The notes: generated by a model from the sequence alone, not told the origin. DNA of 64,000 bases from Clostridia bacterium (GCA_050950825.1 JBMNIH010000003.1:384001-448000), one strand, 5' to 3'. Numbered from the stretch's first letter, positions 20,772 to 64,000 are shown. Translations and numbers: made by a program.

Positions 20772-20795
20772 CAAGTTTATACAAACCTCCTTTCA

Positions 20796-21377
20796 TCAAC
20801 CGGCAAACAATCCGCTAAAGCCCATAAAGGCCAAAGACACAAAGGCTGCCGCTACCAAAGATATGGGAAAACCTTTAAAGCATTCCGGTACATCGCATAA
20901 TTCCAAACGTTCTCGAACCCCTGCAAATATCAATATGGCCACCATATAGCTGACCCCGGCGGAAAATCCGAAAACAATGGACTTGATAAACGTATAATCC
21001 CTTTGGATGTTCAAAATGGATACGGCCAAAACGGCGCAGTTGGTGGTAATAAGGGGAAGGTAAATCCCCAATGCTTTATACAGCCGTGGCAGCGTCTTTT
21101 TCATCACAATTTCCACCAATTGAACCAATGCGGCAATAACCAATATAAAGGTAATGGTTTGAAGGAACATCATATCTAAGGGTGCCAGTATATAAGTATA
21201 AACCAGCCAAGTAACGGCGGAGGCTACGGTCATAACAAAGATGACCGCACCGCTCATCCCTACGGAGTTGGACAAATCCTTCGAAACACCCAAGAAGGAA
21301 CACACGCCTAAAAATTTGCTCAATACAAAGTTTTCAACAAATATTGTGGCGAATATGATAATCAATATTTCTTTCAT
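20796..21377 (-). CDS. rnfA: Rnf complex subunit A
   Basis: NFVLSKFLGVCSFLGVS, LGIYLPLITTNCAV. Confidence 0.95.
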   Translation of the reverse strand: MKEILIIIFATIFVENFVLSKFLGVCSFLGVSKDLSNSVGMSGAVIFVMTVASAVTWLVYTYILAPLDMMFLQTITFILVIAALVQLVEIVMKKTLPRLYKALGIYLPLITTNCAVLAVSILNIQRDYTFIKSIVFGFSAGVSYMVAILIFAGVRERLELCDVPECFKGFPISLVAAAFVSLAFMGFSGLFAG

Positions 21378-22039
21378 GCTACACTCTCCTTCTCACAGCT
21401 TCTTCCTACACAGTTCATAGGACAAGAGCCGCAATGACGTATAGGGGTGGTTCGATTGGTAATTTTATTAATTAAAGCCATTAAGAACCCGAGAATCATA
21501 AACCCTCCCGGCGGCAGCAAGAAAATAAGTATGGGCTTCATTTCGCCGGTAAGGAAGGATTTACCGAAAATCGATCCGGCTCCCAATATTTCTCTGACAG
21601 ACCCTATTAACACCAGCGATACGGTAAAACCGATTCCCATGCCTATCCCGTCTAAAATGGAATCCCAAACCGGATTCCGGTTTGCAAAGGATTCCGCCCG
21701 AGCCATGATAATGCAGTTTACCACGATCAAGGGTATGAACAAACCTAACGATTCGTCCAATGCAGGGAAAAAGGCTTTTAAAATCAATTCGATAATGGTC
21801 ACAAATCCTGCTATGACCGTGATGTATGCGGGAATTCGGACCTTATCGGGTATGATCCTCCTTAATAACGATATGATCATATTGGATCCTACCAAACAAA
21901 ACGTAGTTGCCAAGCCCATACCCAAACCGTTTTCCGCCGATGTGGTGACGGCTAACGTAGGACACATTCCCAATACCATTCGGAATATGGGGTTTTCATT
22001 TAATATTCCGTTCTTTATAATCTTAAATCCTTTCATCAT
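21374..22039 (-). CDS. rnfE: Rnf complex subunit E
   Basis: ENP..LGMCPTLAVT, LGLFIPLIVVNCII, LPPGGF. Confidence 0.95.
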   Translation of the reverse strand: MMKGFKIIKNGILNENPIFRMVLGMCPTLAVTTSAENGLGMGLATTFCLVGSNMIISLLRRIIPDKVRIPAYITVIAGFVTIIELILKAFFPALDESLGLFIPLIVVNCIIMARAESFANRNPVWDSILDGIGMGIGFTVSLVLIGSVREILGAGSIFGKSFLTGEMKPILIFLLPPGGFMILGFLMALINKITNRTTPIRHCGSCPMNCVGRSCEKESVA

Positions 22040-22605
22040 CAAACCCCCTTTTCGATATAATGATTCAATGCCGCATTGACGGCTCTCGTCAAAGCATTGG
22101 ACGTAACGGTGGCGCCGCTTAACGCATCGATTTCATTCGCTGCGTTACCGCCTTTTTTCGTAACCTTCAAATTGGCTTCTCGAGCACCGATAAACCGGTT
22201 TACAAAGTCGGGCTTTGCCGCTTCTCTTCCTACACCGGGGGTTTCGTTGTTGTCTCCCACCACAACGCCGCTTACCGCACCGGATTTGTCGATACCCACG
22301 ACTACGACGATATCTCCGCCGTAACCGGATGTTTTCACAAGATATACGCATCCCGCAACCTCTTGGCCTTTAAAGCCTTTATTGACTTCAAGAACGGTTG
22401 CTTGGAATTTTGCATCTTTTTCATTCAGTACTGTCGTTTCAAAGGAATCCGCAGCCGGCAAAACCTTTGCCATATATTCTTGTTTCGCCTCTTCTTCCAA
22501 AGCGGCAATGCGATCCTTCGTTATATCATTGACGGCGGATACGATCCCTACCGTCACAAAGCATACGGCTAATAAAACGATTGCAGGTTTTAAAAATTCT
22601 TTCAT
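22039..22605 (-). CDS. rnfG: Rnf complex subunit G
   Basis: GYGGDI, ETPG, FMN-attachment motif SGATVTS. Confidence 0.95.
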   Translation of the reverse strand: MKEFLKPAIVLLAVCFVTVGIVSAVNDITKDRIAALEEEAKQEYMAKVLPAADSFETTVLNEKDAKFQATVLEVNKGFKGQEVAGCVYLVKTSGYGGDIVVVVGIDKSGAVSGVVVGDNNETPGVGREAAKPDFVNRFIGAREANLKVTKKGGNAANEIDALSGATVTSNALTRAVNAALNHYIEKGV

Positions 22606-22607
22606 CT

Positions 22608-23564
22608 TTATCGACCTCCGAAATTTTTCGGTATGGTATAACGATCAATCAGCGGAACCAGCATATTCATAAACAGGATGGAGAAAGCCACACCTTCCGG
22701 CAAAGCGCCGTACAGCCGAATAACCGATGTCACCAAACCGCACCCTACGGCAAAGATTATGGCACCTTTTTTCGTCATAGGCGAAGTCGTGTAATCCGTT
22801 GCCATAAAGATGGCACCTAACAGCAAACCGCCTGCGATCAAATGCGTGAACGGATCTCCCGTAAATAAACCGTTCCCTCCCAGCATCCATGTTAAAAAGG
22901 CCACGGTACCCAAATAGAAGACCGGAATGTGCCATGTTATAACGGTTCTGGCCAGTAAATAGATTCCGCCTAAAATCAGCGCAATCGCCGATGTTTCACC
23001 GATACATCCGCCGATGTTGCCTAAAAACATATCCAAAAAATCCGGCATTGCCGACACGGCCTCCGCATCCTTCATAATGGCTAAGGGCGTAGCCGTAGAG
23101 ATAACGTCCGTTCCGGGCTCCACCCAGGTGGTCATTGCTTGGGCAAAGGAAACGGTTAAAAATACTCTTGCACCTACGGCGGGATTGACAAAATTTTGCC
23201 CGATTCCGCCGAACAACTGCTTAATGATGACAATGGCGATAAAACATCCGAGTACAGCCATCCATACGGGTAAACCCGGCGGCAGGCTCATGGCCAACAG
23301 CAATCCGGTAACGATGGCGGAGCAGTCGCCAATGGAAGCCGGTTTTTTACGAATTCGAACCGCAATATATTCAAATAAAACACAAGAAACGATGCATACG
23401 GCTATTAACAATGCCGCCCTAAGACCGTGGTAATAAATACCCAATAACGCGGCAGGCGCCAATGCGATAACCACATCCAGCATGATTCTTCGTGTAGAAA
23501 TGTGATCCCTTATGTGGGGAGATGCCGAAACGAGCAACTTCTTTTCCATGTTTATTTTTTCCAT
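22608..23564 (-). CDS. rnfD: Rnf complex subunit D
   Basis: KQLFGGIGQNFVNPA, STATPL (FMN site), GETS, FMATDYTTSP. Confidence 0.95.
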   Translation of the reverse strand: MEKINMEKKLLVSASPHIRDHISTRRIMLDVVIALAPAALLGIYYHGLRAALLIAVCIVSCVLFEYIAVRIRKKPASIGDCSAIVTGLLLAMSLPPGLPVWMAVLGCFIAIVIIKQLFGGIGQNFVNPAVGARVFLTVSFAQAMTTWVEPGTDVISTATPLAIMKDAEAVSAMPDFLDMFLGNIGGCIGETSAIALILGGIYLLARTVITWHIPVFYLGTVAFLTWMLGGNGLFTGDPFTHLIAGGLLLGAIFMATDYTTSPMTKKGAIIFAVGCGLVTSVIRLYGALPEGVAFSILFMNMLVPLIDRYTIPKNFGGR

Positions 23565-23566
23565 GT

Positions 23567-24886
23567 TTATTTTCCCCCTTTCACCTTCGGCTGCTGTCTG
23601 ATCAAAGTCTTGCCCATACGTATGGATTGCACCAGGTATCGCTTAGCCGGGCAATTGTACGTGCAGCTGCCGCATTCGATGCAGTCCATAATATGGTATC
23701 GGTTCAGCATTTCCAAGTCACGTCTTCTTGAGAAAAGATCCAGATTCACCGGCATCAAGGACATAGGACAGCGGCTCACACAGCGTCCGCAGCGAATACA
23801 CGGGGTTTCGTTAGGCGGGTCTCCCAATTCTTTTCCGAGAGCCAATATGGCGTTGTTTTGCTTTAATATGGGTTGATCGATGTTGTAGTTGGCTATACCC
23901 ATCATCGGACCGCCCATAATAACCTTTTTGATTTCCTCCGTTATTCCGCCGCAAAAAGCAAGCAGTTCGCGTATGGAGGTACCCACCACCACTTCCACGT
24001 TTCCGGGATTTTTCACCGCCGTACCGTCCACGGTCACTCTTCTTTTCACCAAAGGCATGCCGGTTTCCAAGTACTTGGAGATAAAGGATACGGTGGTAAT
24101 ATTTAATACGATGGTTCCTACATCGGAAGGAAGCCCTCCTGAAGGAACTTTTCTTCCGGTCAACGCGGAAATCAGCATTTTCTCGGCTCCTTGCGGATAC
24201 CTCGTAATTAAAGGCTGAACTTGAATTTTCGTACCCTTTGCCGCTTGGCTTAAAATCTCAATGGATTCGGGCTTATTGTCTTCCACGCCGATAATGAGAT
24301 TGGGAATTTTCAAAAATTCCCCGATGATCTCCGTCCCTCGAATCACATGCTCCGTATGCTCTAACGCTTCTCGGAAGTCCGACGTGATATACGGTTCACA
24401 CTCTACGGCGTTCACAATCAACGTATCAATATCCGCCTCGTTGGGCAGATTCAGCTTCACGTGGGTAGGAAAACCGGCTCCGCCTAGTCCAACCAAGCCG
24501 GAGGCGCGGATAGCCTTGACAAATTCATTCAAATTTCCTACCTTCGGAGGCTTTACATCCTCGTGTATTTCGTTCTCACCGTCCGATTCAATAATCATAA
24601 CCGGAACGTTTCTGCCGTCGTAAGTCAATATGATATCCATCTTCGCAACCTTCCCGGAAACACCGGAATGGATCGGCGCGGAAACATATTGATCCGAATC
24701 TCCGATAACCTGACCGACCTTTACTCGATCGCCTTTTTGTAGTACAGGCTTACAAGGCGCTCCAATATGCTGCTGCATAGGAACTGTGATCGTTTCAGGA
24801 GCCGGCATCACGACGGTCGGGCTATGAGCGGTATTCTTAATGTGAGGAAGCGTAGCACCCTGTTTAAATGTCTTCTTTCTTTTCAT
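23567..24886 (-). CDS. rnfC: Rnf complex subunit C
   Basis: QHIGAP, GLGGAGFPTHVK, ECEPYITSD, YPQGAEK, GGPMMG and two 4Fe-4S motifs. Confidence 0.95.
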   Translation of the reverse strand: MKRKKTFKQGATLPHIKNTAHSPTVVMPAPETITVPMQQHIGAPCKPVLQKGDRVKVGQVIGDSDQYVSAPIHSGVSGKVAKMDIILTYDGRNVPVMIIESDGENEIHEDVKPPKVGNLNEFVKAIRASGLVGLGGAGFPTHVKLNLPNEADIDTLIVNAVECEPYITSDFREALEHTEHVIRGTEIIGEFLKIPNLIIGVEDNKPESIEILSQAAKGTKIQVQPLITRYPQGAEKMLISALTGRKVPSGGLPSDVGTIVLNITTVSFISKYLETGMPLVKRRVTVDGTAVKNPGNVEVVVGTSIRELLAFCGGITEEIKKVIMGGPMMGIANYNIDQPILKQNNAILALGKELGDPPNETPCIRCGRCVSRCPMSLMPVNLDLFSRRRDLEMLNRYHIMDCIECGSCTYNCPAKRYLVQSIRMGKTLIRQQPKVKGGK

Positions 24887-53039: not shown

Positions 53040-54830
53040 TTACAAGGGCTTGTTGTTTTCTAAAAAGCTTTTATCAAACAAATTGGTATTGATGGATGAC
53101 AAAAACTCGGCATTGTTCTTTGTTTTTTGCAATTTATTAAGCAAAAATTCGGTCACTTCGGCGGTCCCCAAATTGCTCATGGCCTTGCGAATGGTCCAAA
53201 CGCTTTCCAATTCCTTCTTCGACAGCAGCAATTCTTCACGTCGGGTACCGGACTTGTTGACATCAATAGCCGGGAAAATACGTTTTTCGGACAATTTACG
53301 ATCCAAATGAAGCTCCATATTACCGGTTCCTTTAAATTCTTCATATATAACGTCGTCCATTCGGCTGCCGGTGTCCACCAATGCGGTGGCAATAACGGTC
53401 AAGCTTCCTCCGTTTTCGATGTTTCTCGCGGCACCGAAGAATCGCTTCGGACTATGCAGCGCACCGGGGTCCAAGCCTCCGGACAAGGTCCTGCCGGTAG
53501 GAGGAATCGTCAAGTTGTAGGCTCGCGCCAATCTTGTAATACTGTCTAAAAGAATCACTACGTCTTTTTTATGCTCAACCAAACGCTCCGCTCTTTTCAG
53601 GACCATTTCCGCAACCTTAATGTGATTTTCAGGCAACTGATCGAATGTGGAATACAAGATTTCTCCTTGAATGGACCTTTGCATATCCGTCACTTCTTCC
53701 GGACGCTCGTCGATCAATAACACAATCAAGTGAACATCGCTGTAGTTTTTGGTTATGGAATTTGCAATCTTCTTTAAAAGCATGGTTTTACCGGCCTTCG
53801 GCGGAGATACGATCATACCGCGCTGGCCTTTTCCGATGGGAGCAATAATATCGATTAAACGGGTAGACAAATCCTTGTCGTCCGTTTCCAACGTCAATCT
53901 TTCATTGGGGAAAATCGGTGTCAAATCCTTAAACGGAATTCGATTGATCGCCACTTCGGGGTCATCGCCGTTAACGGAAAGGACATGAAGTAACGCTTGG
54001 AATTTCTCGCCGGATTTCGGCGTCCTTCCTTTACCTACGATATAGTCTCCGGTTTTTAAATTCATTTTACGTATTTGAGACGGGGAAACATAGATATCGT
54101 TGGGGCCGGATAAATAATTGGCCGATCGTAAAAATCCGTAGCCGTCGGGCAATACCTCCAATACGCCTTCCACCTGTTCGTCGTCATCTTCGTATTTATC
54201 TTCGATTTGGTCCTTCTGGTCCTCTTCCGATTGGCGGCCGGCGTCGGCGTTTACCTTCTTGATTTTGTAATCGTTTTTCGCTTGCGGCTTGCCTTTTGAT
54301 TTTCCTCGTTCAACGATATTCAAGGACTCTTCCGGCGCTTGAGGTATTCTTCCGCCGGTGACTCGTTTCATTTTGACGGGCGAATCCTCCGATTCTTGCG
54401 CCTCTTGCCGGTACAAGGAACCGGACAATTTTTCTCCGTGTACGGAAGTATACGGTTCTTTTTTCTCTTCGACTTCTTTTTTCTCTTCGGATACGACTTC
54501 TTCCGTTTCCGCTTTCGGAACATCGGATTCGGTAATTTTCTTTTCTTCTTCTATGGTCTCGGGGGTTTGTTCAAGCCGGTCGGCTTCTTGCTCTTCCGGC
54601 TCTTGATCATCCACAATATCCGTTTCCGCGTCAATAAACGCCGTATCTTGGATCTGTTCATCCGACTCGGCTTCTTTTGCCTTCGCTTCCTCTTGATAGG
54701 TCTTCGCCTTTTCTAATATTTTGTCCACCAGCTCGTTTTTTCTGTATCGAGTAATACTTTTTATCTCCATCATTTTTGCAATATATCGCAAATCTTCAAG
54801 TTTCTTCTTTAACAAGTCACTTTTTTGCAT
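53040..54830 (-). CDS. rho: Transcription termination factor Rho with a long N-terminal insertion
   Basis: [53 protein letters not shown]. Confidence 0.97.
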
Positions 54831-55220
54831 ACGACACCACCTTAATCCGGTTTTTTTCTTTAATTTTTTGCTCTATCATGAAACTATACTTTGAAATTAC
54901 AGCGTAAAAGTATGATTACAATAGCCAAGAATGAACGATATCCAATGTGAAGTCTTATAAGTACCTTTAAACGATTTTTAACGACAATCGCATTCACGAA
55001 AATCTTTTAGTTGTAAAATCGGGTATGGATTTTCTTATGGAGGTCAAACATTTAGACGACTTCACAATGACTCTATCAATCAAAGGCAGCAAATTGCTCT
55101 AGATTCCCATTCATCAGTCCTATTGTATCATATGGATTGTCAATTGTACATATACCAATTATACTATATTACCGAGAATTTATACAATTATCTAAAAATT
55201 TTCTTGGCTTTTTCTAAAAC

Positions 55221-56255
55221 TTATCCCCCTGCTTGTTTTAACCTGTAGCGCTCGATCTCCCAACCGTATATAAAGTTCTTTTGCTCTTGGGTCAATACCG
55301 AAAGACTTAAGTGCAATCGCTTAACGGTATCCAAAACGTAAAGATATGCCGCTAACGTATCTTCAATACCGGATGCTTCTCGTTCTCCTGCATTATACAG
55401 TACCTTTCCGTTTTGTTCAACCGATATTTTTCCGGTATTGAGCGCAAATGCTTTATTCAAATACACCAATTGGTCCGGGTATAAAGCGTATCGATCCAAG
55501 AATTCAAAATTGGCTTTCGAAGAATCAAACAATGAAAGGACAATTTCCCCCGTGCTTTCATAGACGTTGTCATCCGTTTTTCGTATTCCGGGCGTCGGAT
55601 AGGGCTGCGGCAGACCGAAATATTCAATGATTCGACGGTTCACCTGAAGGTGAAGATCTATACAGGCGTCCGGTGTCGCTTCGGAAACAATCAATCCGTG
55701 GTTTTGCATGAAAATGACTTTCGGGAAAATACCGGTTTTGTCCAACCTCTCCCGGATCCCTTTCCTTATTTCCCAAGAAAGAGTAAAGCCCGGATTCACA
55801 TAGGGAACCCAAAGGAACAGCTCCGAAGGAAAAATTTCGGACGCAAGGGATTCTCCTTCCTTCGAGCAGCAAAGAATGTTGGCATAAACCGAATGAGAGT
55901 GGATTACCACCTTATCTAAAAAAGAATGAAAAGGAGCCTCAACGGAAGGGCGCATTTTTTCGAGTCCCGGAATATCCGTAATATTCCGGTTAACAAAAGA
56001 TACCATGTCGCTTTCGTAATCGATACCCGACGAAAAATCCACCTTGTCAAAATAGTCGAGTATGGCTTTCCGGTTCACAACGACAAAGCCTTTGCTCGGC
56101 GTCATTTCGTTTAACCGTAAGCCGCTGGCCTTGATGGCCATGAATTCATCCCCGAACTTAACGGAGGTGTTGCCGCCTCCGCTTTGAATCAAATCCGGTT
56201 CTTTACCTACCGCAACCGATATGCGGGCTAAATCTTCAAAATGTTCGGAATACAT
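55221..56255 (-). CDS. Class II aldolase/adducin family protein (RhaD-like ketose-1-phosphate aldolase)
   Basis: GGGNTSVK, KASG, RPSVE, H...HSH, MQNHG zinc ligands, PDQLVY. Confidence 0.85.
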   Translation of the reverse strand: MYSEHFEDLARISVAVGKEPDLIQSGGGNTSVKFGDEFMAIKASGLRLNEMTPSKGFVVVNRKAILDYFDKVDFSSGIDYESDMVSFVNRNITDIPGLEKMRPSVEAPFHSFLDKVVIHSHSVYANILCCSKEGESLASEIFPSELFLWVPYVNPGFTLSWEIRKGIRERLDKTGIFPKVIFMQNHGLIVSEATPDACIDLHLQVNRRIIEYFGLPQPYPTPGIRKTDDNVYESTGEIVLSLFDSSKANFEFLDRYALYPDQLVYLNKAFALNTGKISVEQNGKVLYNAGEREASGIEDTLAAYLYVLDTVKRLHLSLSVLTQEQKNFIYGWEIERYRLKQAGG

Positions 56256-56270
56256 ACATTCTATCCTTCC

Positions 56271-56642
56271 TTACAAGGGATACGCGATGGTCGTCATGAG
56301 AGCCATTTCCGCCTGGGTGGTATCCATACGGCTGTATTGGACCACAATCTCTACGTTGCTTTCCACCAAAATAGCGTAAGGTACTCCTCTCGGGACGCCT
56401 ATGCCTTCTTCGTTTCGAATTTTATCCATACGGATATGGTTCGTCCGTTCCGCTTTGCAAACGGCCTTGAAACCGCCCATCTTTTCCCGGTCCTCAAAAT
56501 ACAGGGTCATGGTGATTTCGGCATCCTGATCGCTCGTATTCAACACGCAAACGGCGTCATGACTGTGAAACTTTCCGCTGCTTTCTTTCGGATAATACGC
56601 ATCCGGAATGAGCCAAACCTTGCTTCCAATTTTCTTATCCAT
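56271..56642 (-). CDS. ASRT (Anabaena sensory rhodopsin transducer) family protein
   Basis: G.KVWLIPDAYYP, SHDAVCVLN, YFEDRE, ERTNHIR, VVQYSRMDTTQAE.ALMTTIAY. Confidence 0.85.
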   Translation of the reverse strand: MDKKIGSKVWLIPDAYYPKESSGKFHSHDAVCVLNTSDQDAEITMTLYFEDREKMGGFKAVCKAERTNHIRMDKIRNEEGIGVPRGVPYAILVESNVEIVVQYSRMDTTQAEMALMTTIAYPL

Positions 56643-56645
56643 CTT

Positions 56646-58130
56646 TTAAGCCTCCTTGTCTAAACCGGTAACTTTTAAAAATGTATCGTATGCATCATCC
56701 CAAGCTTGGGTATCGATAGGTTCCATAATTTTCGGTTCAAAAGAGCGGCGAATCAACTCTCTTGCTTGAGGAATGTCCTTTAATTCTCCCAAACAAATCA
56801 GCTGTCCCGCTATGTTCCCCGCGGAAGTGGCCTCAACCGGTCCTGCGATTACCGGTTTTCCTATGGCGGATGCGGTAAAGCGTAAGAGCAAATCGTTTTT
56901 GCTTCCTCCTCCCACCACATGAAGCTCTTCAAAGGTGACACCACGGATCTTTTCCAATGCCGTTATGGCGTATCGGTATTTCATGGCCAAGCTTTCCAAA
57001 ATACAGCGGGTAATCTGTCCTCGGGTTTCGGGAATTTTCTGCCCGGTGTTTTTGCAATACTCTCGGATGCGAGAAGGCATATCGCCGGGTTCGTAGAATA
57101 CACCGTCGTCCGGATCGATAAATGCCAAGAAAGCTTCCGCTTCCTCCGCCCATTTATCCAGCCGGTCGTATTGAATGGGACCTGTTTCCAATTCCCATTG
57201 GCGTTTGCTTTCTTGCAAAATCCACAATCCCATAATGTTTTTTAACAATCGAATCCTGCCGCCAAAGCCCCCCTCGTTGGTGTAGTTTAAGCGGAAGGTA
57301 TGTTCATTGATCACCGGCTCCGGACATTCGGTGCCCAACAGCGACCACGTTCCGGAACTGATATACGCAAAGTCCTTTTTGGAAGACGGTACCGCCAAAA
57401 CGGCGCTTGCCGTATCGTGTCCGGCGGTTGCAATGATTTTCACGTCTCGTAAGCCGGTGGCTTGGCACATGTCTTTCGTCAGTTTTCCCGCCGGGGTACC
57501 GGAAGGAACCGGATCTTTTAATAAATCGTCTCGAATGTTCAGTTTCTTTAATATGGCCTTGTCCCATTCCTTGGTTCGTGCATTGAGCAATTGAGACGTA
57601 CTGGCGATAGAATATTCACAGAGCATTTCACCGGATAAGTAATAGTTGAATAAATCCGGCATAAATAACAGGGTATCGGCAAGGTCCAAAAGCTCCTTTT
57701 GGATTTTGCTTAATGCCAGCAGCTGGTACACCGTATTCAGCTTCATAAATTGAATGCCGGTGCTGTTGTAAAATTCTTCATCGCTGACGTACTTTGCCGC
57801 TTCCTCCTGCATACCGTCCGTTCTTTTATCCCTGTAGTGCACCGGATTGGCGATGAGTTGGCCGTTTTTGTCCAAAAGCCCGAAGTCCACTCCCCAAGTA
57901 TCGGAGGAGGCGGAGGCCAGGTCCTGATGTCCTTCTTGATAGCACCTTATCAAGGTGTGTTTCATTTCGTTCATCAGCCTTAATATATCCCAATACAAGG
58001 TTCCGTTAAACATGACGGGATCGTTTGAGAAACGATGGATTTCGCGGAGTGAAATTTTTTCCCCGTCAAATTCCGACAAAATGGCTTTGCCGCTGCTTGC
58101 TCCAAAATCAAAAGCCAAGGATTTTAACAT
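56646..58130 (-). CDS. Rhamnulokinase-like FGGY carbohydrate kinase
   Basis: DFGASSG, DTWGVDFGL, YRD.RT, GHDTASAV, SSGTWSL.G.E, NE.G, KNIMGLW, VGGGS.N, GPVEAT. Confidence 0.9.
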   Translation of the reverse strand: MLKSLAFDFGASSGKAILSEFDGEKISLREIHRFSNDPVMFNGTLYWDILRLMNEMKHTLIRCYQEGHQDLASASSDTWGVDFGLLDKNGQLIANPVHYRDKRTDGMQEEAAKYVSDEEFYNSTGIQFMKLNTVYQLLALSKIQKELLDLADTLLFMPDLFNYYLSGEMLCEYSIASTSQLLNARTKEWDKAILKKLNIRDDLLKDPVPSGTPAGKLTKDMCQATGLRDVKIIATAGHDTASAVLAVPSSKKDFAYISSGTWSLLGTECPEPVINEHTFRLNYTNEGGFGGRIRLLKNIMGLWILQESKRQWELETGPIQYDRLDKWAEEAEAFLAFIDPDDGVFYEPGDMPSRIREYCKNTGQKIPETRGQITRCILESLAMKYRYAITALEKIRGVTFEELHVVGGGSKNDLLLRFTASAIGKPVIAGPVEATSAGNIAGQLICLGELKDIPQARELIRRSFEPKIMEPIDTQAWDDAYDTFLKVTGLDKEA

Positions 58131-59425
58131 AACGTACCTCCTTTTTTATGCCGGTCTAAAAATTGTCGGGCATACAATCGGATTCTTTGATTCAAATCAG
58201 GATATTTTGCTATTGTTTCGGTCGAAAAAAGAGCCAAGGTCCTGTCCTGTGCGGCTGCATATTCATGTTGAATCAAAGCATAGGTGGAATACACAAGATT
58301 TTGCAGCTCGGAGCTTCTCAAGGCTTCGCATATAAAGTTCTGTCTCGGCGAGTTAATATCCTCCCCGCTAATTTCCATAAAATCGAAGGCATTACACAAA
58401 ATTTTTATTCTTTGAAGCTGCAAAGGAGTGTTTCGGGAGGGCATATATGTGACGGCACGAAATCCTAACCGTTTCAGCTCTCCGAACAATTCGTTCAAGT
58501 AATCGTCTTCAAACTTCTGCGCTTTCTTATCCCCGGTTATCGAATCGTAAACGTCTCCAAGATAGGCATAAGCGGATATGGCACCGATTCGCTCGGCCAA
58601 ATCGATGACGGCGGCAACGTCCGGGCATTCGTTTTCGTCCGCAGGTATATAAAATTTTTCAACCAGATCGCTTTTTAAAGCTCCCAGCAAATCGTACGGG
58701 TAATAGGGATTGTCCGGATCTTCCAAATAGGCGGTGTTTTTGCGGCTGACCGGAATTTTTAACGTGTCCGTTAAGAAACGAAGAGTATTTTTACCTCTCC
58801 CGTAAACGGAAAGGATTCTTTCGGATAGGGCAAACAATAGATGCCTTTCCGTAACGCTTCCCCCTTCACGAGCCTTCGATAAAGGAAGCACATCCTTGTC
58901 ATAATCCAAAGGGCCTACATGCTTCGCCGTCAATTCATTAATTCTCTCCGTCATACGGCGGTTACGAATTTCCCGGTGTCGAGATACGGTCCGGCAGAAT
59001 TGCTCCGCATCGGAAAGCCGGTCATAAGGAATACCGTGAAGGGCGATATAGGCGATATCGTCTTGGTCCGGATTGTTGATTCTCCTTCCGGAAACGGAGG
59101 TATTCTTCATACTGACCCGAAGCTCCACGCCGGAGGTTACCGGAAAATCCGCAATACGGCCGGCTTGTATAAACTCCTTTACCCCCGCAACGGAATCATG
59201 ATCCATGATTCCGGCAGTACCCAGCCCGGCTCTTATGGCCATGGCAACAGCCTTTGTCGGCGAATACGGGGAAAAGGAATACCAGGTGTGAATATGATTG
59301 TTCACATCGGAAAAGGAGGTACTCGAAGAATTCAAGCTCTTGTTATCAACCAGCATCTCCAATTCTTTTAAACGAACCTCTTGATTCGGATGATTCAATT
59401 GTTCAAATAGTCGCAAATTATCCAT
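58124..59425 (-). CDS. PHP domain protein (metal-dependent phosphoesterase fold)
   Basis: NNHIHT.YS, GIMDHDSV, GVE, ISGEDINSPRQ. Confidence 0.8.
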   Translation of the reverse strand: MDNLRLFEQLNHPNQEVRLKELEMLVDNKSLNSSSTSFSDVNNHIHTWYSFSPYSPTKAVAMAIRAGLGTAGIMDHDSVAGVKEFIQAGRIADFPVTSGVELRVSMKNTSVSGRRINNPDQDDIAYIALHGIPYDRLSDAEQFCRTVSRHREIRNRRMTERINELTAKHVGPLDYDKDVLPLSKAREGGSVTERHLLFALSERILSVYGRGKNTLRFLTDTLKIPVSRKNTAYLEDPDNPYYPYDLLGALKSDLVEKFYIPADENECPDVAAVIDLAERIGAISAYAYLGDVYDSITGDKKAQKFEDDYLNELFGELKRLGFRAVTYMPSRNTPLQLQRIKILCNAFDFMEISGEDINSPRQNFICEALRSSELQNLVYSTYALIQHEYAAAQDRTLALFSTETIAKYPDLNQRIRLYARQFLDRHKKGGTLC

Positions 59426-59431
59426 GACCTG

Positions 59432-60199
59432 CTATCTCATTTCCTGTCCGCCGGTTACGTTAATGGCTTGTCCGGTCATATACGAGGACTGATCGGATGC
59501 TAAAAATACCATAACGTTGGCAACGTCTTCGTACTCACAGGATCTTTTCAAAGGGACTTGGTTTAAATATTTTTCACGAACTTGCTCTTTAGTAATGCCT
59601 TGGTTTCTTGCATATTGTTCGAACAAACTGTCTCTCCATAAAGGAGAATTTAAAAGATTTCCCGGGCAAATGGCGTTGACACGAATATTGTATTCCGCCA
59701 GCTCCAAAGCCAAGCTTTGGGTCAGGCCGATTCCACCGAACTTCGATGACGCATATGCGGAGTTTTTATAGGAACCTTTTTTCCCGGATTTACTGTTAAT
59801 CTGGATAATGCAGCCGCTTCTCTGCTTGATCATGTAAGGCACTACCGCTTTTGCACTGAGAAAATAGCCGGTTAAGTTGACATCGATCATTTTCCGCCAT
59901 TCCTCCGGTGTAAATTCCGTGATAGCCTTTGCAATCAAAATAGCCGCATTGGAAACTAAAATATCGATCCTTCCGAATTTTTCGACGGTCCGGTTAGCGG
60001 CTTCCTCCAGCTGTTCGAATTTCGTGACATCAGTTTTTATGGCTATGGACTCTTTTAATAACGAAGCCGTTTCCTTTACCGCATCTTCGTTGATGTCCAA
60101 TACCGCCACCTTACAGCCTTCATTGCTCAAACGTTCGGCCAAATGCCTTCCTAAGCCTTGTCCTGCACCGGTCACCATTGCAACTTTGTCTTTTAACAT
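59432..60199 (-). CDS. SDR oxidoreductase, sorbitol-6-phosphate dehydrogenase (SrlD)-like
   Basis: TGAGQGLG, INSKSGKKGS.KNSAYASSKFGGIGLTQSLA, GNLL.SP, TGQAINVTGGQ. Confidence 0.85.
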   Translation of the reverse strand: MLKDKVAMVTGAGQGLGRHLAERLSNEGCKVAVLDINEDAVKETASLLKESIAIKTDVTKFEQLEEAANRTVEKFGRIDILVSNAAILIAKAITEFTPEEWRKMIDVNLTGYFLSAKAVVPYMIKQRSGCIIQINSKSGKKGSYKNSAYASSKFGGIGLTQSLALELAEYNIRVNAICPGNLLNSPLWRDSLFEQYARNQGITKEQVREKYLNQVPLKRSCEYEDVANVMVFLASDQSSYMTGQAINVTGGQEMR

Positions 60200-60472
60200 T
60201 CTTACCCTCCAAACCAATGCTTACCGATATGGTATCACAGATACAATCAATGTAGAAGATGATTTCCATCGTTTTCATGTACTTTCGTATAAGCGGAACG
60301 TAAAACAAACGAGCAAGAGAATCTTAAAAAATCCAAACAAGGAAACATAAACAATAACATAAGCATTATTCAGCTAATTACCGCGTAATAAAGAAAGGAT
60401 TCCCTTGCCGCAAACAAGTATATCAAAAAACTATGGAGAAGAAAAGCGGTTTTAAGCTGCCGTTTCCCGGAA

Positions 60473-61288
60473 TTACAACATAATCACACGGCTTTCCGAA
60501 AAAGCCTTTCTCGTATCTTCGTCTAAAAGCAAAGGATCTTCGCAAATGAAGCAGTCCACATCCTCCAAGCTTGCGAATGTAAAGGCCAAATCCTTGTTGA
60601 ATTTACCGGTATCCATAAGCAAAAACACCTTTTTCGCTTTTTGAACCACATGCTTTTTTAAAGCGCATTCGTTCATATTGGAGACCGTAAATCCGCGATC
60701 GACGGAAAACCCGGAAGCCGACATAAAGGCCAAATCGATATTGACTTGGGATAAAACATCCAAAGAGGTCGGTCCCGAACAGGACAATGTATTGGCATTT
60801 ACATTTCCCCCCGGTAAAAACACCGAGATGCGAGTCTTCTTCACCAACTCCAAGGCCGTGTTCACCGCGCTGGTAATAACGGTATAGCTGTCGTCTTTTA
60901 ACAAGCGGGCCAGCTGCATAATGGTGGAGCCGGCATCCAAATACACGGATCGTCCCTTTTCCACGTAAGGCAGCGCTTTTTTGGCAATGACGGCCTTCGC
61001 TTCCCTGTTTTCTCTCGCACGCATGGAGTATGCATCTTCTTCCCCTTCCGTTCGGAGCTTGTCTCGACTGACGGCTCCGCCGTGGGTTCGAATCAAATAA
61101 CCCTTTTCTTCCAGATATGTCAGGTCCCTTCTTAAGGTCATGACGGAATATTCGGGAAATTCTTTGCTTAACCCTTTTAATTGAATTTCACCATGCCGGT
61201 TGAGTAAGTTTAAAATTTGCTTTTGCCTGTCGTTCAGTTCAACCACCCTCTCCGGAGTATACCGGAAGAAAGGTGACATGAAAGCCAC
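60473..61288 (-). CDS. DeoR/GlpR family transcriptional regulator (start uncertain)
   Basis: SVMTLRRDL..LE..G...RTHGGA, LDAGST, DLAFMSASG. Confidence 0.9.
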   Translation of the reverse strand: MAFMSPFFRYTPERVVELNDRQKQILNLLNRHGEIQLKGLSKEFPEYSVMTLRRDLTYLEEKGYLIRTHGGAVSRDKLRTEGEEDAYSMRARENREAKAVIAKKALPYVEKGRSVYLDAGSTIMQLARLLKDDSYTVITSAVNTALELVKKTRISVFLPGGNVNANTLSCSGPTSLDVLSQVNIDLAFMSASGFSVDRGFTVSNMNECALKKHVVQKAKKVFLLMDTGKFNKDLAFTFASLEDVDCFICEDPLLLDEDTRKAFSESRVIML

Positions 61289-61304
61289 CTTTCTTATTCT
61301 TTCC

Positions 61305-63776
61305 TTATACCCCTTCTTTATTTCGTCTCATCAATTCCACGTCCGTAAAATTGTTGGTAGGAACGTGACCTTTTAAAGGTAATATTTTTTCGTGAATGGC
61401 ATCAATAATCCAAGACGCTTGCGGGAAGAATTCTTCTTCGTACTCGTGAGCCGGCGTGATCCAGTTTCTTGCGCCTACTACTACGGGAGGAGCATCCAAG
61501 TAATCAAACGCCAATTCGCTGATGGTTTGGGCCAAGTCCTTCAAGTGGGATCCTCTGTCGCAGGCATCTCCGGCTAACAAGATGCGCCCCGTCTTCTTCA
61601 CCGATTCGATGACCTTTTCATAATTGAACGGAACAAGGCTTCTTGCATCGATTAATTCGACGGAAAGTCCGTACTTGTCCTTGAGGATTTTCGCCGCATC
61701 CCATGCTCTGTAAAGAGTAGCTCCTACGGTTAATATGGTAATGTCATTTCCCTGCAATTTTACATCCGGTTCTCCGATGGGGATTTCATAATATCCTTCC
61801 GGAACACCTTCTTCTCGGAACCATTCGCCGTAATCGTAAACTCTCTGGCTTTCAAAGAATATAACCGGGTCGGTTCCGGCCAAAGCGCTGTTCATTAACC
61901 CCTTGGCATCGTAGGGGGTTACCGGGAATACCACCTTCAAGCCCGGAATATGAGCCGTAAGAGAAGTCCAGTCTTGGGAGTGCTGCGCACCGTATTTGGA
62001 TCCTACGGAAATACGAAGAACAACCGGCATTTTCAACTGCCCTGCGCTCATAGCCTGCCATTTGGAAAGCTGGTTAAACACTTCGTCTCCGGCACGGCCT
62101 AAAAAGTCGCTGTACATCAATTCCACAATGGCACGGCCGCCGCACATGGCGTACCCTACCGCCGATCCTACAATGGCACCCTCGGATATGGGAGAGTTGA
62201 ACAAACGATGGTAAGGCAGCGATTCCGTCAAGCCTCTATACACGGCAAAAGCGCCGCCCCAGTCGCGGTTTTCTTCCCCGTAAGCCACCAAGGTCGGATC
62301 CGTATAGAATTTATCCAAAATCGCTTCGAAAATGGCGTCGCGAACTTGAAATACCTTGTTTTTCGAAACCGGTTTTCCGTCTTGGAATCCGAAGCGTACT
62401 TTGCTTGCAATCTGCTTCACACGAGGATTTTCTTCCTTCGGAATCAACACGTCGCAGGGACGGTCTTCCATCTTCTCGATCTTTTGGTTGGAGAACATCA
62501 ATTTTTCAATGGCTCTCGGATCGGCTTTTAAGTCCATATAGGGGGAGATGCCCTTGTCAACGGTGAATCGGCAAATGTCGGTTATCAATTTTTGAGTATA
62601 TTCCAAAATGCCGTCAAATTCACTGTCGGGAGCCACATTGGCTTCCGCCAATTTGGTACGGTATTCGATCAAAGAATCGTGCTTCTGCCAAGCTTCGACT
62701 TCTTCCTTCGTCCGATAAGAAGAAGCGTCGGAAGGAGAATGGCCGGAGAAACGATAAGTAACAACGTCCAACAAAACGGGACCTTTTTTGGCAAGGAGCA
62801 GTTCCTTTTTACGCTTGATCGCATCGGCAACCGCCAACGGATTGTAGCCGTCCACACGTTCGGCGTGCATTTGCTCCGGATTCACCCCGGCTCCGATACG
62901 GGCTAGCATTTCGTATCCCATGGTTTCTCCCACGGTTTGTCCGCCCATGCCGTATTGGTTGTTCATGATGTTGAATATGATGGGCAAGCCTCCTTTATGC
63001 TCGCCTTCCCACAAGGTTTTGTATTGGTCCATTGCGGCAAAGCTTAAGGCTTCCCAAACCGGACCGCATCCTAAAGAAGCGTCTCCGATATTGGCGATAA
63101 CGATACCGTCTTTTAGGTTCACTTTTTTGTACAAAGCCGCACCGGTGGCGATGTCCGCAGAGCCTCCCACGATAGCGTTATTCGGATATATGCCGAAAGG
63201 CAGGAAGAAAGCATGCATGGATCCGCCTAAGCCTCTTGTAAAGCCGGTTTCGCGGGCAAAGATTTCCGCCATGGTTCCGTATATCAAAAAGGCAATGGCC
63301 AATTCTTTTACGGAGCCCGCGTTTTTATAGTTTAGTTCCACAACCTTCAAAACGACGCCGTCTCGATAGGTTTCCATGATATTCATTAATTCCGAATCGG
63401 AAAGCTTTTGTATCGCCGAAAGCCCTTTTGCCAGGATTTCGCCGTGGCTTCTATGGGAACCGAAGATGAAATCGTTGGTATCCAAATAGTAGGCCTGCCC
63501 TACGGCTGCGGCTTCTTGGCCGATACTCAAGTGCGCCGGACCCGGATGGTTGTATTCGATGCCGTTATACTGGCCGGTGGTTTTGATGGCGTTCATCATG
63601 GTTTCAAATTCCCGAATAATCGCCATGTCACGGTAAATTCTCAAGAAGTCTTCTTTTGTATAGTTTTCTTTTTCCTGCTCCACGGTCTTATCGTATTGAT
63701 TGACCGGGATATCGGTGAACCGAATAAAGCTCTTCGCTCTCATTTTATCGGGGTCTATATTTAAAATTTTGGTCAT
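61305..63776 (-). CDS. Fused E1 alpha/beta ThDP-dependent 2-oxoacid/acetoin-type dehydrogenase
   Basis: [22 protein letters not shown]...NNQYG ThDP motif, [10 protein letters not shown]; beta half GEE..WGGAF, PISE, QHSQ, PYDAKG. Confidence 0.9.
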
Positions 63777-63795
63777 TTTATACACTCCTTTTTAT

Positions 63796-64000
63796 TTAAA
63801 ATTCAAAGATTCCCTCACGAATGATTTCGCTAACGGTAGGATGAGGGAATATGATTTGCTTAATATCTTCTAATCTCATTTCGCATTCGATCATAGGCGC
63901 TACGCCGTATATAATTTCGGAGGCATAGCTTCCGATCATGTGAACTCCGATTAATCTTTGGTTCTTTTTATCGACAATCAGCTTGCATATGCCGTTGCCC
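63796..64000 (-). CDS. lpdA: Dihydrolipoyl dehydrogenase (E3), C-terminal part
   Basis: Hand translation: ...GICKLIVD...LIGVHMIGSYASEII...IFPHPTVSEIIRE (HPTxSE motif); directly upstream of E1. Confidence 0.85.
   Translation of the reverse strand, partial: GNGICKLIVDKKNQRLIGVHMIGSYASEIIYGVAPMIECEMRLEDIKQIIFPHPTVSEIIREGIFEF

What the first reader, a model, noticed from the sequence alone, without database searches (positions are those of the whole stretch)
55221..64000. Uncharacterised sugar/polyol catabolic locus coupled to a dedicated fused-E1 dehydrogenase complex
Seen: co-oriented lpdA, fused E1 alpha/beta and DeoR, then a tightly coupled run of SrlD-like SDR, PHP, rhamnulokinase-like kinase, ASRT and class II aldolase. 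Known: an FGGY kinase plus RhaD-like aldolase splits a ketose-1-P into DHAP and an aldehyde, and canonical rhamnose/fucose pathways add an isomerase, which is absent from the visible part of this locus. Inference: an oxidative entry (polyol or polyol-P to ketose via the SDR, perhaps with PHP as phosphatase), then phosphorylation and aldol cleavage. The ThDP/lipoamide complex would then oxidise the fragment, or a ketose directly, to an acyl-CoA. I know of no characterised pathway with this gene set.
Basis: partly seen in the sequence, partly recalled or inferred. Interest (0 to 1): 0.75.

Follow-up and report, generated by a model that had tools for sequence, protein, structure and literature searches.

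The report
Deoxy-sugar operon with dehydrogenase-complex module
A Clostridia gene cluster for breaking down the deoxy-sugars rhamnose and fucose is joined to a widely conserved but untested enzyme set (a pyruvate-dehydrogenase-like complex, two alcohol dehydrogenases, a metal phosphatase-like protein) that seems to replace the protein microcompartment other Clostridia use for this.

Summary
The genes are there as described, all on the minus strand. E2 lies just beyond the window. It is not an isomerase-less polyol pathway: the genome has RhaA and FucI elsewhere, and relatives have them beside the same kinase and aldolase. The aldolase is the RhaE type, and the 'SrlD-like' SDR is 41-45% identical to the SDR domain of clostridial RhaEW-like fusions. 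So the locus is an L-rhamnose/L-fucose operon with a split RhaEW.

The fused-E1/E2/E3 complex is linked to these genes across Clostridia, together with the 430-aa PHP protein and a 422-aa Zn-ADH-like protein. In about 300 genomes of the class:
- 52 of 55 PHP-bearing genomes carry the E1 orthologue.
- 55 of 55 carry the kinase.
- 53 of 55 carry the MDR.
- 40 of 45 RhaE-type aldolase genomes carry PHP.
- Only 2 of 55 carry microcompartment shell genes, against 76 of 107 kinase-bearing genomes without PHP.

The link between complex and rhamnose is already in print for Caldicellulosiruptor (rhamnose-induced cluster; predicted lactaldehyde step) but has not been tested.

Best reading: a microcompartment-independent module for the lactaldehyde branch. 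The substrates of E1 and PHP remain open.

The parts
63796..64000 (-). 3' part of E3, dihydrolipoyl dehydrogenase (lpdA; whole gene 63796-65160). The E2 gene follows upstream at 65180-66520, outside the window.
   Evidence: TIGR01350 487.6 bits (cut-off 408.8). E2 has Biotin_lipoyl + E3_binding + 2-oxoacid_dh.
61305..63785 (-). Fused E1 alpha/beta, the ThDP component of a 2-oxoacid/acetoin-type dehydrogenase complex. It is the only such E1 found in the genome.
   Evidence: No substrate-specific NCBIfam model reaches its cut-off. Homologues are 76-86% identical in many Clostridia.
60473..61288 (-). DeoR-family regulator, 16 nt after E1.
   Evidence: Homologues 56-60% identical sit in the same module in 8 of 80 loci. 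RNA-library contigs bridge the E1-DeoR junction.
60218..60472 (-). Intergenic region upstream of the SDR. Possible start of the SDR-to-aldolase transcript near 60357-60396.
   Evidence: RNA-library contigs of three runs end at 60357, 60392 and 60396. This is a weak hint only.
59432..60217 (-). SrlD-like short-chain dehydrogenase, the stand-alone counterpart of the RhaW-like SDR domain of RhaEW-type fusions.
   Evidence: best solved match 5o3z SrlD, 224 bits; 41-45% identity to SDR domains of 430-678-aa proteins, two of them RhaEW-like fusions.
58124..59425 (-). 430-aa PHP-family metal-dependent phosphoesterase-like protein. Substrate unknown.
   Evidence: PHP-type His/Asp/Glu columns invariant; fold nearest BAD_1165, RNase AM and the Cv1693 pAp phosphatase.
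56646..58130 (-). FGGY kinase of the rhamnulokinase type. It is the only such kinase in the genome and probably acts on L-rhamnulose and L-fuculose.
   Evidence: Homologues lie next to RhaA or FucI in related loci.
56271..56642 (-). ASRT-family small beta-sandwich protein, a predicted sugar binder.
   Evidence: W10 and S27-H28-D29..C32..N35, matching the signature described in PMC2739507.
55221..56255 (-). RhaE-type class II aldolase, stand-alone, 344 aa. It is the only class II aldolase found in the genome.
   Evidence: matches only the aldolase part of the bifunctional aldolase/SDR models; HSH, E and H motifs; assigning them as metal ligands is recalled.

Best explanation
The locus is the L-rhamnose/L-fucose catabolic operon of an anaerobic-digester Clostridium, joined to a conserved clostridial accessory module.

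The sugar steps are inferred from homology and context:
1. RhaA or FucI, encoded elsewhere in the genome, makes the ketose.
2. The single rhamnulokinase-type FGGY kinase makes the ketose-1-phosphate.
3. The RhaE-type class II aldolase splits it into DHAP and L-lactaldehyde. It probably works together with the adjacent SDR, as in fused RhaEW enzymes.

What is shown here is a distribution. E2-E3-fused E1, the SDR, the PHP protein and a 422-aa Zn-ADH-like protein (unlinked in this genome) are inherited together with this kinase and this aldolase type. They almost never coexist with microcompartment shell genes, and in other Clostridia the same kinase sits next to shell genes.

The rest is inferred. 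The module is a microcompartment-independent way of disposing of the reactive C3 aldehyde branch. The alcohol dehydrogenases would reduce lactaldehyde to 1,2-propanediol or oxidise it. The ThDP/lipoamide complex would convert lactaldehyde, or an oxo compound derived from it, to an acyl-CoA plus NADH when hydrogen is kept low.

The PHP protein is most likely a phosphoesterase acting on a phosphorylated intermediate or cofactor of this route. Its substrate is unknown. The ASRT protein is a sugar-binding accessory.
For: **Gene content**
-.
- Isomerases elsewhere in the genome.
- The genome holds one kinase, one aldolase and one E1/E2/E3 set.

**80 loci around PHP homologues**
- A gene of the complex in 31 of 80.
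- MDR422 in 24.
- SDR at 60% identity or more in 26.
- Kinase in 21; aldolase in 10.
- RhaA in 5; FucI in 3.
- Complex and deoxy-sugar genes together in 17.

**Class sample, 300-301 genomes** (scripts 58, 84, 92)
- PHP in 55.
- Of these 55: E1 orthologue in 52, kinase in 55, MDR422 in 53, aldolase in 40.
- 40 of 45 aldolase genomes have PHP.
- Among 162 kinase genomes: PHP+BMC+ 2, PHP+BMC- 53, PHP-BMC+ 76, PHP-BMC- 31.
- Within four families (f7, f10, f17, f37) the 9 PHP+ genomes are all BMC-, and 29 of the 30 PHP- genomes are BMC+.
- The kinase lies within 8 kb of PHP in 19 genomes.
- It lies within 8 kb of a shell gene in at least 12 PHP- genomes (rows).

**SDR**: 41-45% identical to the SDR domains of RhaEW-like proteins.

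**Other routes in this genome**
- No equivalog-level FucO or AldA, and no shell genes.
- Two full-length PFORs, so a plain PDH would be redundant.

**Literature**
- A Caldicellulosiruptor cluster with E1, E2 and E3 is upregulated on rhamnose (PMC4187192 section 4.2; PMC3561251).
- Lactaldehyde step predicted for the complex (PMC8579813).
- RhaEW needs its SDR activity for turnover (PMC3870299).

**Expression**: RNA-library contigs from four biogas-fermenter metatranscriptomes cover the locus and bridge its gene junctions.
Against: - No enzyme of the module has been assayed anywhere that I could find.
- C. saccharolyticus turns rhamnose into 1,2-propanediol, acetate, H2 and CO2 at 1:1:1:1. That leaves little lactaldehyde for an oxidising complex under those conditions.
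- I know of no E1 shown to take an aldehyde as its donor (recalled, not searched exhaustively).
- Downstream of the aldolase the only phosphorylated compound is DHAP, so the canonical scheme gives the PHP protein no job.
- E1 is unusually conserved (76-86% identity among the 120 homologues listed), which would also fit a central substrate such as pyruvate.
- 7 of 63 E1-bearing genomes showed no kinase, and 11 of 63 no PHP.
- PHP also sits in housekeeping neighbourhoods: parE/parC in 6 of 80 loci, YceG/O-methyltransferase in 6 of 80.
- Shell genes also serve ethanolamine and choline use, and related genomes are not independent, so the exclusion pattern overstates the case.
- Orthology to the Caldicellulosiruptor genes rests on the papers' descriptions, not on sequences.
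- RNA-library contigs do not prove transcription.
Confidence: 0.55

Rival explanations
1. The complex is a pyruvate dehydrogenase that completes an oxidative branch. The RhaW-like SDR oxidises lactaldehyde to L-lactate as in RhaEW, another dehydrogenase makes pyruvate, and E1/E2/E3 makes acetyl-CoA.
For: - RhaEW yields L-lactate, and some RhaEW regulons include lactate dehydrogenases (PMC3870299).
- The best NCBIfam and PDB matches of E1 and E2 are PDH and BCKDH components.
- E1 is highly conserved.
Against: - No PDH model reaches its cut-off.
- The genome already has two full-length PFORs.
- Three NADH per lactaldehyde is a heavy load for a fermenter.
- MDR422 resembles polyol dehydrogenases, not lactate dehydrogenases.
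- PHP is left unexplained.
Confidence: 0.15
2. The two dehydrogenases oxidise the CH3-CHOH end of the 6-deoxyketose-1-phosphate to an acetoin-like methyl ketone. E1 then cleaves it to acetyl-CoA and a phosphorylated C4 aldehyde, which the PHP protein and the aldolase-like protein process. This would be a new route that makes no lactaldehyde.
For: - SrlD, mannitol-1-P and galactitol-1-P dehydrogenases oxidise the penultimate carbon distal to the phosphate (established knowledge).
- PHP is associated with an SrlD-like SDR and a polyol-type MDR, and in one protein is fused to a Mannitol_dh domain.
- Acetoin-type E1s cleave methyl ketols (established knowledge).
- This scheme would give PHP a phosphorylated substrate.
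Against: - 1,2-Propanediol is made 1:1 from rhamnose in C. saccharolyticus, which requires lactaldehyde.
- No known fate exists for the C4 product.
- The RhaE active-site motifs are intact.
Confidence: 0.1
3. One reading: an unknown polyol or polyol-phosphate enters through the SDR, with PHP as phosphatase. It is then phosphorylated and cleaved, and the complex oxidises the fragment.
For: - The SDR passes the sorbitol-6-P dehydrogenase cut-off.
- The PHP fold is that of phosphoesterases.
- One Mannitol_dh-PHP fusion exists.
- The locus has no isomerase.
Against: - RhaA and FucI are in the genome and adjacent in relatives.
- The SDR is homologous to RhaW-like domains.
- The kinase homologues sit beside fucose/rhamnose-type microcompartment genes in other Clostridia.
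Confidence: 0.08
4. The adjacency means nothing. The complex is a housekeeping 2-oxoacid or acetoin dehydrogenase that merely lies next to a sugar operon.
For: - In this window the complex and the sugar genes appear to be separate transcription units (255-nt gap, weak hint).
- 7 of 63 E1-bearing genomes showed no kinase.
- Lipoate ligase genes are frequent neighbours.
Against: - Co-occurrence: 52 of 55 and 55 of 55.
- Repeated adjacency in different gene orders.
- Near-exclusion of shell genes.
- Rhamnose induction reported for Caldicellulosiruptor.
Confidence: 0.08

Closest known systems
Caldicellulosiruptor rhamnose cluster (Csac_0865-0876 with E1/E2/E3 Csac_0874-0872; C. bescii Athe_0702-4 in the RhaR2 cluster)
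   Same: A three-gene E1/E2/E3 set (so E1 is one gene), 'homologous to acetoin dehydrogenase', sits in a DeoR-regulated rhamnose locus of an anaerobic member of the Clostridia. The cluster is upregulated on rhamnose and the function is called unclear or predicted.
   Different: - I could not compare sequences, so orthology is inferred.
- The passages I saw do not mention a PHP protein ('PHP' occurs 0 times in PMC8579813), the MDR, or the microcompartment exclusion.
- Here the isomerases are unlinked and an ASRT gene is present.
RhaEW bifunctional L-rhamnulose-1-P aldolase / L-lactaldehyde dehydrogenase (Chloroflexus aurantiacus Caur_2283; B. subtilis YuxG)
   Same: The aldolase matches only the aldolase part of these models. 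The SDR is 41-45% identical to the SDR domains of clostridial RhaEW-like proteins. Both lie with a rhamnulokinase under a DeoR-family regulator.
   Different: - Here there are two separate genes, with PHP, kinase and ASRT between them.
- Even the fused clostridial forms score about 295 bits against a cut-off of 568.
- I know of no E1 complex, PHP or MDR partner in the characterised systems (recalled).
Microcompartment-dependent fucose/rhamnose fermentation (Clostridium phytofermentans type)
   Same: Homologous kinase type and the same sugars. The kinase is adjacent to shell genes in at least 12 sampled genomes.
   Different: The window genome has no shell genes, and the two solutions almost never co-occur. 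For that system I saw only the search listing and abstract (PMC3557285). Its steps are recalled.
Acetoin dehydrogenase enzyme system AcoABCL
   Same: A ThDP E1, a lipoyl E2 and an E3, accompanied by butanediol-dehydrogenase-like SDR and MDR relatives. One source names the Thermoclostridium homologue an acetoin:DCPIP oxidoreductase subunit.
   Different: - E1 is fused.
- The acetoin E2 model matches only the lipoyl part (65.9 bits, cut-off 307).
- The context is deoxy-sugar genes, not acetoin genes.
cog0613-type PHP phosphoesterases (BAD_1165, RNase AM/TrpH, Cv1693 3',5'-nucleotide bisphosphate phosphatase)
   Same: Nearest sequence and fold matches, with TM-score normalised to the target of 0.67-0.71. 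The PHP-type His/Asp/Glu motifs are invariant.
   Different: - About 140 residues longer, with a helical insertion.
- 13-19% identity.
- A distinct, large family: 896 representative clusters.
- Sugar-catabolic context.
ASRT / TM1070 family
   Same: Full-length Pfam match and the signature residues. Neighbourhoods with isomerase, aldolase and kinase genes, and with 'pyruvate decarboxylase/oxidase' genes, were described in 2009.
   Different: ASRT is rare in this module: 1 of the 80 related loci, plus this window.

Membership tests
Phosphorylated L-rhamnose/L-fucose pathway (isomerase, kinase, aldolase) | An aldose-ketose isomerase for the sugar is present | tested here: met
   RhaA (PF06134, 713.7 bits) on contig C2 and FucI (three Fucose_iso domains) on C7, neither in the locus.
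Phosphorylated L-rhamnose/L-fucose pathway (isomerase, kinase, aldolase) | Rhamnulokinase or fuculokinase at equivalog level | tested here: inconclusive
   TIGR02627 494 bits against a cut-off of 528; fuculokinase model 141 bits against 471. Homologues lie beside RhaA or FucI.
Phosphorylated L-rhamnose/L-fucose pathway (isomerase, kinase, aldolase) | Ketose-1-phosphate aldolase with class II metal site | tested here: met
   PF00596 61.7 bits. HSH, Glu and His motifs are present; which residues bind the metal is recalled from FucA.
Phosphorylated L-rhamnose/L-fucose pathway (isomerase, kinase, aldolase) | Induction by, and growth on, rhamnose or fucose | not testable with these tools
   Only metatranscriptome contigs from digesters are available.
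RhaEW bifunctional aldolase/SDR | Aldolase and SDR in one polypeptide | tested here: not met
   Separate genes at 55221-56255 and 59432-60217.
RhaEW bifunctional aldolase/SDR | Both halves homologous to the RhaE and RhaW domains | tested here: met
   The aldolase matches profile positions 16-219 of 689. The SDR is 43% identical to the SDR domains of two 661- and 678-aa RhaEW-like proteins.
2-oxoacid dehydrogenase complex | E1 (ThDP), E2 with lipoyl domain, and E3 encoded together | tested here: met
Pyruvate / 2-oxoglutarate / branched-chain / acetoin dehydrogenase (by substrate) | E1 or E2 reaches a substrate-specific curated cut-off | tested here: not met
   E1: best 239.5 bits against 321 and 198.7 against 393.85. 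E2: 273.3 against 445; acetoin E2 65.9 against 307.
PHP metal-dependent phosphoesterases | PHP motifs and fold | tested here: met
   PF02811 28 bits (cut-off 26.4). Invariant H44, H46, D75, H76, E101, H130, H195, D291, H387. Model pLDDT 89, with top fold matches to PHP enzymes.
PHP metal-dependent phosphoesterases | Phosphoester hydrolysis | not testable with these tools
ASRT family | Full-length domain with the conserved W and the SH[ED]..C..N strand | tested here: met
   PF07100 161 bits over positions 1-119 of 119. W10 and S27-H28-D29-A-V-C32-V-L-N35 (signature from PMC2739507).
Caldicellulosiruptor-type rhamnose cluster | Sequence orthology to Csac_0872-0874 / Athe_0702-4 | not tested
   No named sequences could be fetched. 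The match is by described architecture only.

The most novel reading that the evidence does not exclude
The fused-E1/E2/E3 complex is not a 2-oxoacid dehydrogenase. It would be a ThDP/lipoamide enzyme that takes a deoxy-sugar-derived carbonyl compound straight to an acyl-CoA. Candidates are L-lactaldehyde, methylglyoxal hydrate, or a 5-oxo-6-deoxyketose-1-phosphate. The PHP protein would have a new, dedicated activity in the same route, for example on an acyl-phosphate, on CoA's 3'-phospho-ADP moiety, or on a deoxy-sugar phosphate. Together they would form an unrecognised, microcompartment-free branch of rhamnose and fucose fermentation, common in digester and gut Clostridia.
Probability: 0.25. 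Interest if true: 0.8.

Novelty: new variant of a known kind. Interest (0 to 1): 0.6.

Why it matters
Rhamnose and fucose are major deoxy-sugars of pectin, mucin and algal polymers. Their fermentation products (1,2-propanediol, propionate, propanol, acetate) shape digester and gut chemistry.

In the sampled class, about a third of the genomes that carry the kinase (59 of 162) have the PHP gene or the E1 orthologue, and all but three of those lack shell genes. So a large part of clostridial deoxy-sugar metabolism runs through enzymes nobody has assayed.

The distribution data turn a 2008-2021 puzzle (why is a keto-acid dehydrogenase induced by rhamnose?) into a defined, testable six-gene module. 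They add two unnoticed members, PHP and MDR422. They also name cultured organisms in which to test it, by the names that sources give the homologues: Thermoclostridium stercorarium, Petroclostridium and Anaerobacterium, with Caldicellulosiruptor from the literature.

Tried and rejected
- **DeoR operator search.** Seeds of 14 nt from the two upstream regions, up to 3 mismatches, over 44 upstream regions. Only AT-rich, promoter-like words recurred, so no regulon could be drawn.
- **Promoter and terminator scan of 54700-64000.** Counts were close to those of the shuffled controls: 15 against 14.9 expected, and 16 against 11.3 expected (sd 3.5).
- **A supposed MDR422-PHP fusion in G062** (879-aa open frame). 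The two genes are in different frames, so they are adjacent, not fused.
- **PHP as a replacement isomerase.** Fold matches to L-rhamnose isomerases were weak (E 0.03-0.07, TM 0.22), and RhaA and FucI exist in the genome.
- **Literature searches that gave nothing relevant:**
  - ASRT + rhamnose.
  - lactaldehyde / lactyl-CoA / dehydrogenase complex / lipoamide.
  - rhamnose / 2-oxoacid dehydrogenase / dihydrolipoamide / upregulated / Clostridi.
  
  My statement that the module is unassayed rests on these searches and only. Supplementary tables of PMC8579813 and PMC3870299, which may list the neighbouring genes, were not seen.
- **van de Werken 2008**, the primary transcriptome paper, is not held.
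- **RNA data.** Contigs cannot give levels, strands or true ends. Parts without cover in run X18 mean nothing.
- **No complex prediction was run**, because I claim no protein-protein binding.

Full report
**Observation**

- E3 (63796 onward)
- a fused E1 alpha/beta of 826 aa (61305-63785)
- a DeoR regulator 16 nt downstream (60473-61288)
- a 255-nt gap
- SDR (59432-60217), PHP (58124-59425), an FGGY kinase (56646-58130), ASRT (56271-56642) and a class II aldolase (55221-56255), separated by 6, -7, 3 and 15 nt

Reading 16 kb beyond the window shows E2 directly upstream of E3. Its neighbours are an anaerobic ribonucleotide-reductase activase and unrelated genes. The next gene downstream is rho. 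Neither the rest of the window (48 ORFs) nor the extension holds an isomerase or a sugar transporter.

**What the sugar genes are**

- The kinase scores 494 bits on the rhamnulokinase model, just under its cut-off of 528.
- The aldolase matches only the N-terminal aldolase part of the 'bifunctional aldolase/short-chain dehydrogenase' (RhaEW) models. It keeps the HSH, Glu and His motifs.
- The SDR passes the sorbitol-6-P dehydrogenase cut-off (354.6 against 307), and its best solved relative is SrlD.
- The SDR is also 41-45% identical to the SDR domains of 430-678-aa proteins found near PHP genes in other Clostridia. Two of these are RhaEW-like fusions.

In characterised RhaEW enzymes the SDR domain oxidises the lactaldehyde released by the aldolase domain, and no DHAP appears without NAD+ (PMC3870299, passages). 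So the aldolase and SDR here read as a split RhaEW.

In the whole genome (97% complete) the kinase, aldolase, PHP, ASRT and E1/E2/E3 are each single-copy. RhaA and FucI are present on other contigs. In related loci RhaA or FucI lies beside the kinase and aldolase. The 'missing isomerase' is therefore a matter of gene scattering, not of pathway design.

**Is the complex really coupled?**

Yes. I fetched 80 loci around PHP homologues, labelled their ORFs with the window's proteins, and clustered the rest. My ORF caller recovered the PHP gene in 70 of the 80. Many loci are cut by contig ends.

| Feature | Loci of 80 |
|---|---|
| At least one gene of the complex | 31 |
| E1 | 27 |
| 422-aa Zn-ADH-like protein (MDR422) | 24 |
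| SDR, 60% identity or more | 26 |
| SDR, lower identity | 14 |
| Kinase | 21 |
| Aldolase | 10 |
| Lipoate-protein ligase (plus catalytic-domain-only form) | 8 (+5) |
| RhaA | 5 |
| FucI | 3 |
| ASRT | 1 |
| Complex genes and deoxy-sugar genes together | 17 |

PHP also occurs beside parE/parC (6 loci) and beside YceG/O-methyltransferase (6 loci).

**Co-occurrence in an even sample of the class**

The sample is 301 genomes. One of them, G106, was not scored in five of the six searches.

| Gene | Genomes | Threshold |
|---|---|---|
| PHP | 55 | E <= 1e-30 |
| Any E1 match | 89 | E <= 1e-30 |
| Kinase | 162 | E <= 1e-60 |
| RhaE-type aldolase | 45 | E <= 1e-20 |
| MDR422 | 75 | E <= 1e-60 |
| Shell protein (PF00936) | 105 | E <= 0.001 |

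Of the 89 genomes with an E1 match, I kept as orthologues the 63 with a hit of at least 55% identity. I dropped the 26 whose only hits were E1-like matches at 33-44% identity.

Overlaps (scripts 58, 84):
- Of the 55 PHP genomes, 52 have the E1 orthologue, 55 the kinase, 53 MDR422 and 40 the aldolase.
- 40 of the 45 aldolase genomes have PHP.
- PHP lies within 12 kb of E1 in 15 genomes and within 8 kb of the kinase in 19.
- MDR422 is adjacent to PHP or to the kinase in a dozen genomes.

**Exclusion of microcompartments**

Among the 162 kinase-bearing genomes:

| | Shell genes present | Shell genes not found |
|---|---|---|
| PHP present | 2 | 53 |
| PHP not found | 76 | 31 |

The pattern holds inside families. 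In f7, f10, f17 and f37 together, the 9 PHP+ genomes all lack shell genes, and 29 of the 30 PHP- genomes have them. In at least 12 PHP- genomes the kinase lies within 8 kb of a shell gene (rows).

So homologous kinases are attached either to a microcompartment or to the PHP/E1/MDR/SDR set with a RhaE-type aldolase. Related genomes are not independent, and shell genes serve other substrates too. The pattern is therefore strong but not proof.

**What is in print**

- ASRT genes next to isomerase, aldolase and kinase genes, and next to 'pyruvate decarboxylase/oxidase' genes, were described in 2009 (PMC2739507, read in two of three parts).
[quoted passage not shown] Rhamnose gives 1,2-propanediol, acetate, H2 and CO2 at 1:1:1:1 (PMC4187192, section 4.2).
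- Csac_0874-0872 are the E1, E2 and E3 of a 'keto-acid dehydrogenase' (PMC3561251, passages).
- For C. bescii, Athe_0702-4 is called a novel three-subunit dehydrogenase homologous to acetoin dehydrogenase in the RhaR2 (DeoR) cluster. It is 'likely' to perform the final lactaldehyde step, because FucO and AldA are missing (PMC8579813, passages).

So the link between rhamnose and the complex is known as an unexplained observation and a prediction. I found no assay. I could not compare sequences with those genes.

**The PHP protein**

- It belongs to a large family named only 'PHP domain-containing protein'. One search found 896 representative clusters.
- The His/Asp/Glu columns typical of PHP metal sites are invariant in 18 sequences.
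- A confident model (pLDDT 89) is closest to BAD_1165, RNase AM and the Cv1693 3',5'-nucleotide bisphosphate phosphatase. The same relatives appear by sequence profile.
- Occasional fusions join it to a Mannitol_dh domain (1 protein), to LPG_synthase_TM domains (6), and to methyltransferase, GNAT or PALP domains (14 proteins scanned).
- Nothing identifies its substrate.

**MDR422**

It is only distantly related to sorbitol, xylitol, butanediol and threonine dehydrogenases.

**This genome**

- No RhaM, FucU or shell genes were found.
- No equivalog-level FucO or AldA was found.
- It has two full-length PFORs and an Rnf complex.

**Expression**

The DNA is found in anaerobic-digester and bioreactor metagenomes. 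Four biogas-fermenter RNA libraries hold 56-94% of the sampled words of the locus.

Their contigs bridge the aldolase-ASRT-kinase-PHP junctions, the kinase-PHP-SDR junctions and the E1-DeoR junction. Three contigs end at 60357-60396, upstream of the SDR. This is compatible with two transcription units. Contigs from RNA libraries do not prove transcription.

**Reading**

Shown:
- gene identities
- the split-RhaEW relationship
- scattered isomerases
- the co-inheritance of kinase, RhaE-type aldolase, SDR, PHP, MDR422 and E1/E2/E3
- their near-exclusion of shell genes

Inferred: the module handles the lactaldehyde branch without a microcompartment. The dehydrogenases would reduce or oxidise the aldehyde, and the complex would yield an acyl-CoA.

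Weak points:
- the 1:1 propanediol yield in C. saccharolyticus
- the lack of precedent for an aldehyde-oxidising E1
- an idle PHP in the canonical scheme
- the very high conservation of E1

Noticed in passing
L082:7567-8109 (G000 contig C2, next to RhaA at L082:8143-9414): A DJ-1 family glyoxalase III (TIGR01383, 173 bits, above its cut-off of 131) sits directly downstream of RhaA. The cluster also holds an MGH1-like glycoside hydrolase, a sulfatase and an MFS transporter. This hints that methylglyoxal may arise during rhamnose use.
   Followed up: partly
window 56271-56642: The genome shows no RhaM or FucU mutarotase, while an ASRT sugar-binding protein sits between the kinase and the aldolase. 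ASRT might stand in for a mutarotase or act as a sugar sensor. It is rare in the module (1 of 80 related loci).
   Followed up: partly
window 53040-54830: Rho factor of 596 aa. The NCBIfam Rho models of 413-415 positions span residues 1-581, which implies an insertion of roughly 170 residues between the N-terminal and RNA-binding domains.
   Followed up: no
window 3865-5965: An integrase-core (rve) ORF followed by an AAA_22 ORF, which looks like an IS21-type insertion sequence (type recalled). ORFs nearby have no family match.
   Followed up: no
window 19947-24886: A six-gene Rnf-type ferredoxin:NAD+ oxidoreductase operon. This is relevant to how NADH from a lipoamide complex could be balanced.
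   Followed up: no
P0132, P0156, P0172, P0174, P0194, P0201, P0229: Distant members of the PHP family are fused to a mannitol-dehydrogenase domain (1 protein) or to a lysyl-phosphatidylglycerol-synthase-type membrane domain (6 proteins). This suggests polyol-phosphate or lipid-headgroup substrates in other branches of the family.
   Followed up: partly
L087:465-7088 (G033 contig C49): PHP and MDR422 lie here between a 602-aa protein and a fructose-6-phosphate aldolase (TIGR00875, above its cut-off) plus type III pantothenate kinase. The 602-aa protein has an SDR C-terminus and an unrecognised N-terminal 330 residues. LplA and E1-E3 lie on the other strand.
   Followed up: no
L001:5445-7697 (window coordinates 67444-69696, outside the window): A 750-aa ORF with no Pfam or NCBIfam match lies beside the E2 operon's divergent neighbour.
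   Followed up: no
L084:4862-5719 (G000 contig C10): A second, 285-aa PHP/CehA-McbA-like metallohydrolase lies 2.5 kb from the unlinked MDR422 gene, next to a DUF6062 protein.
   Followed up: no
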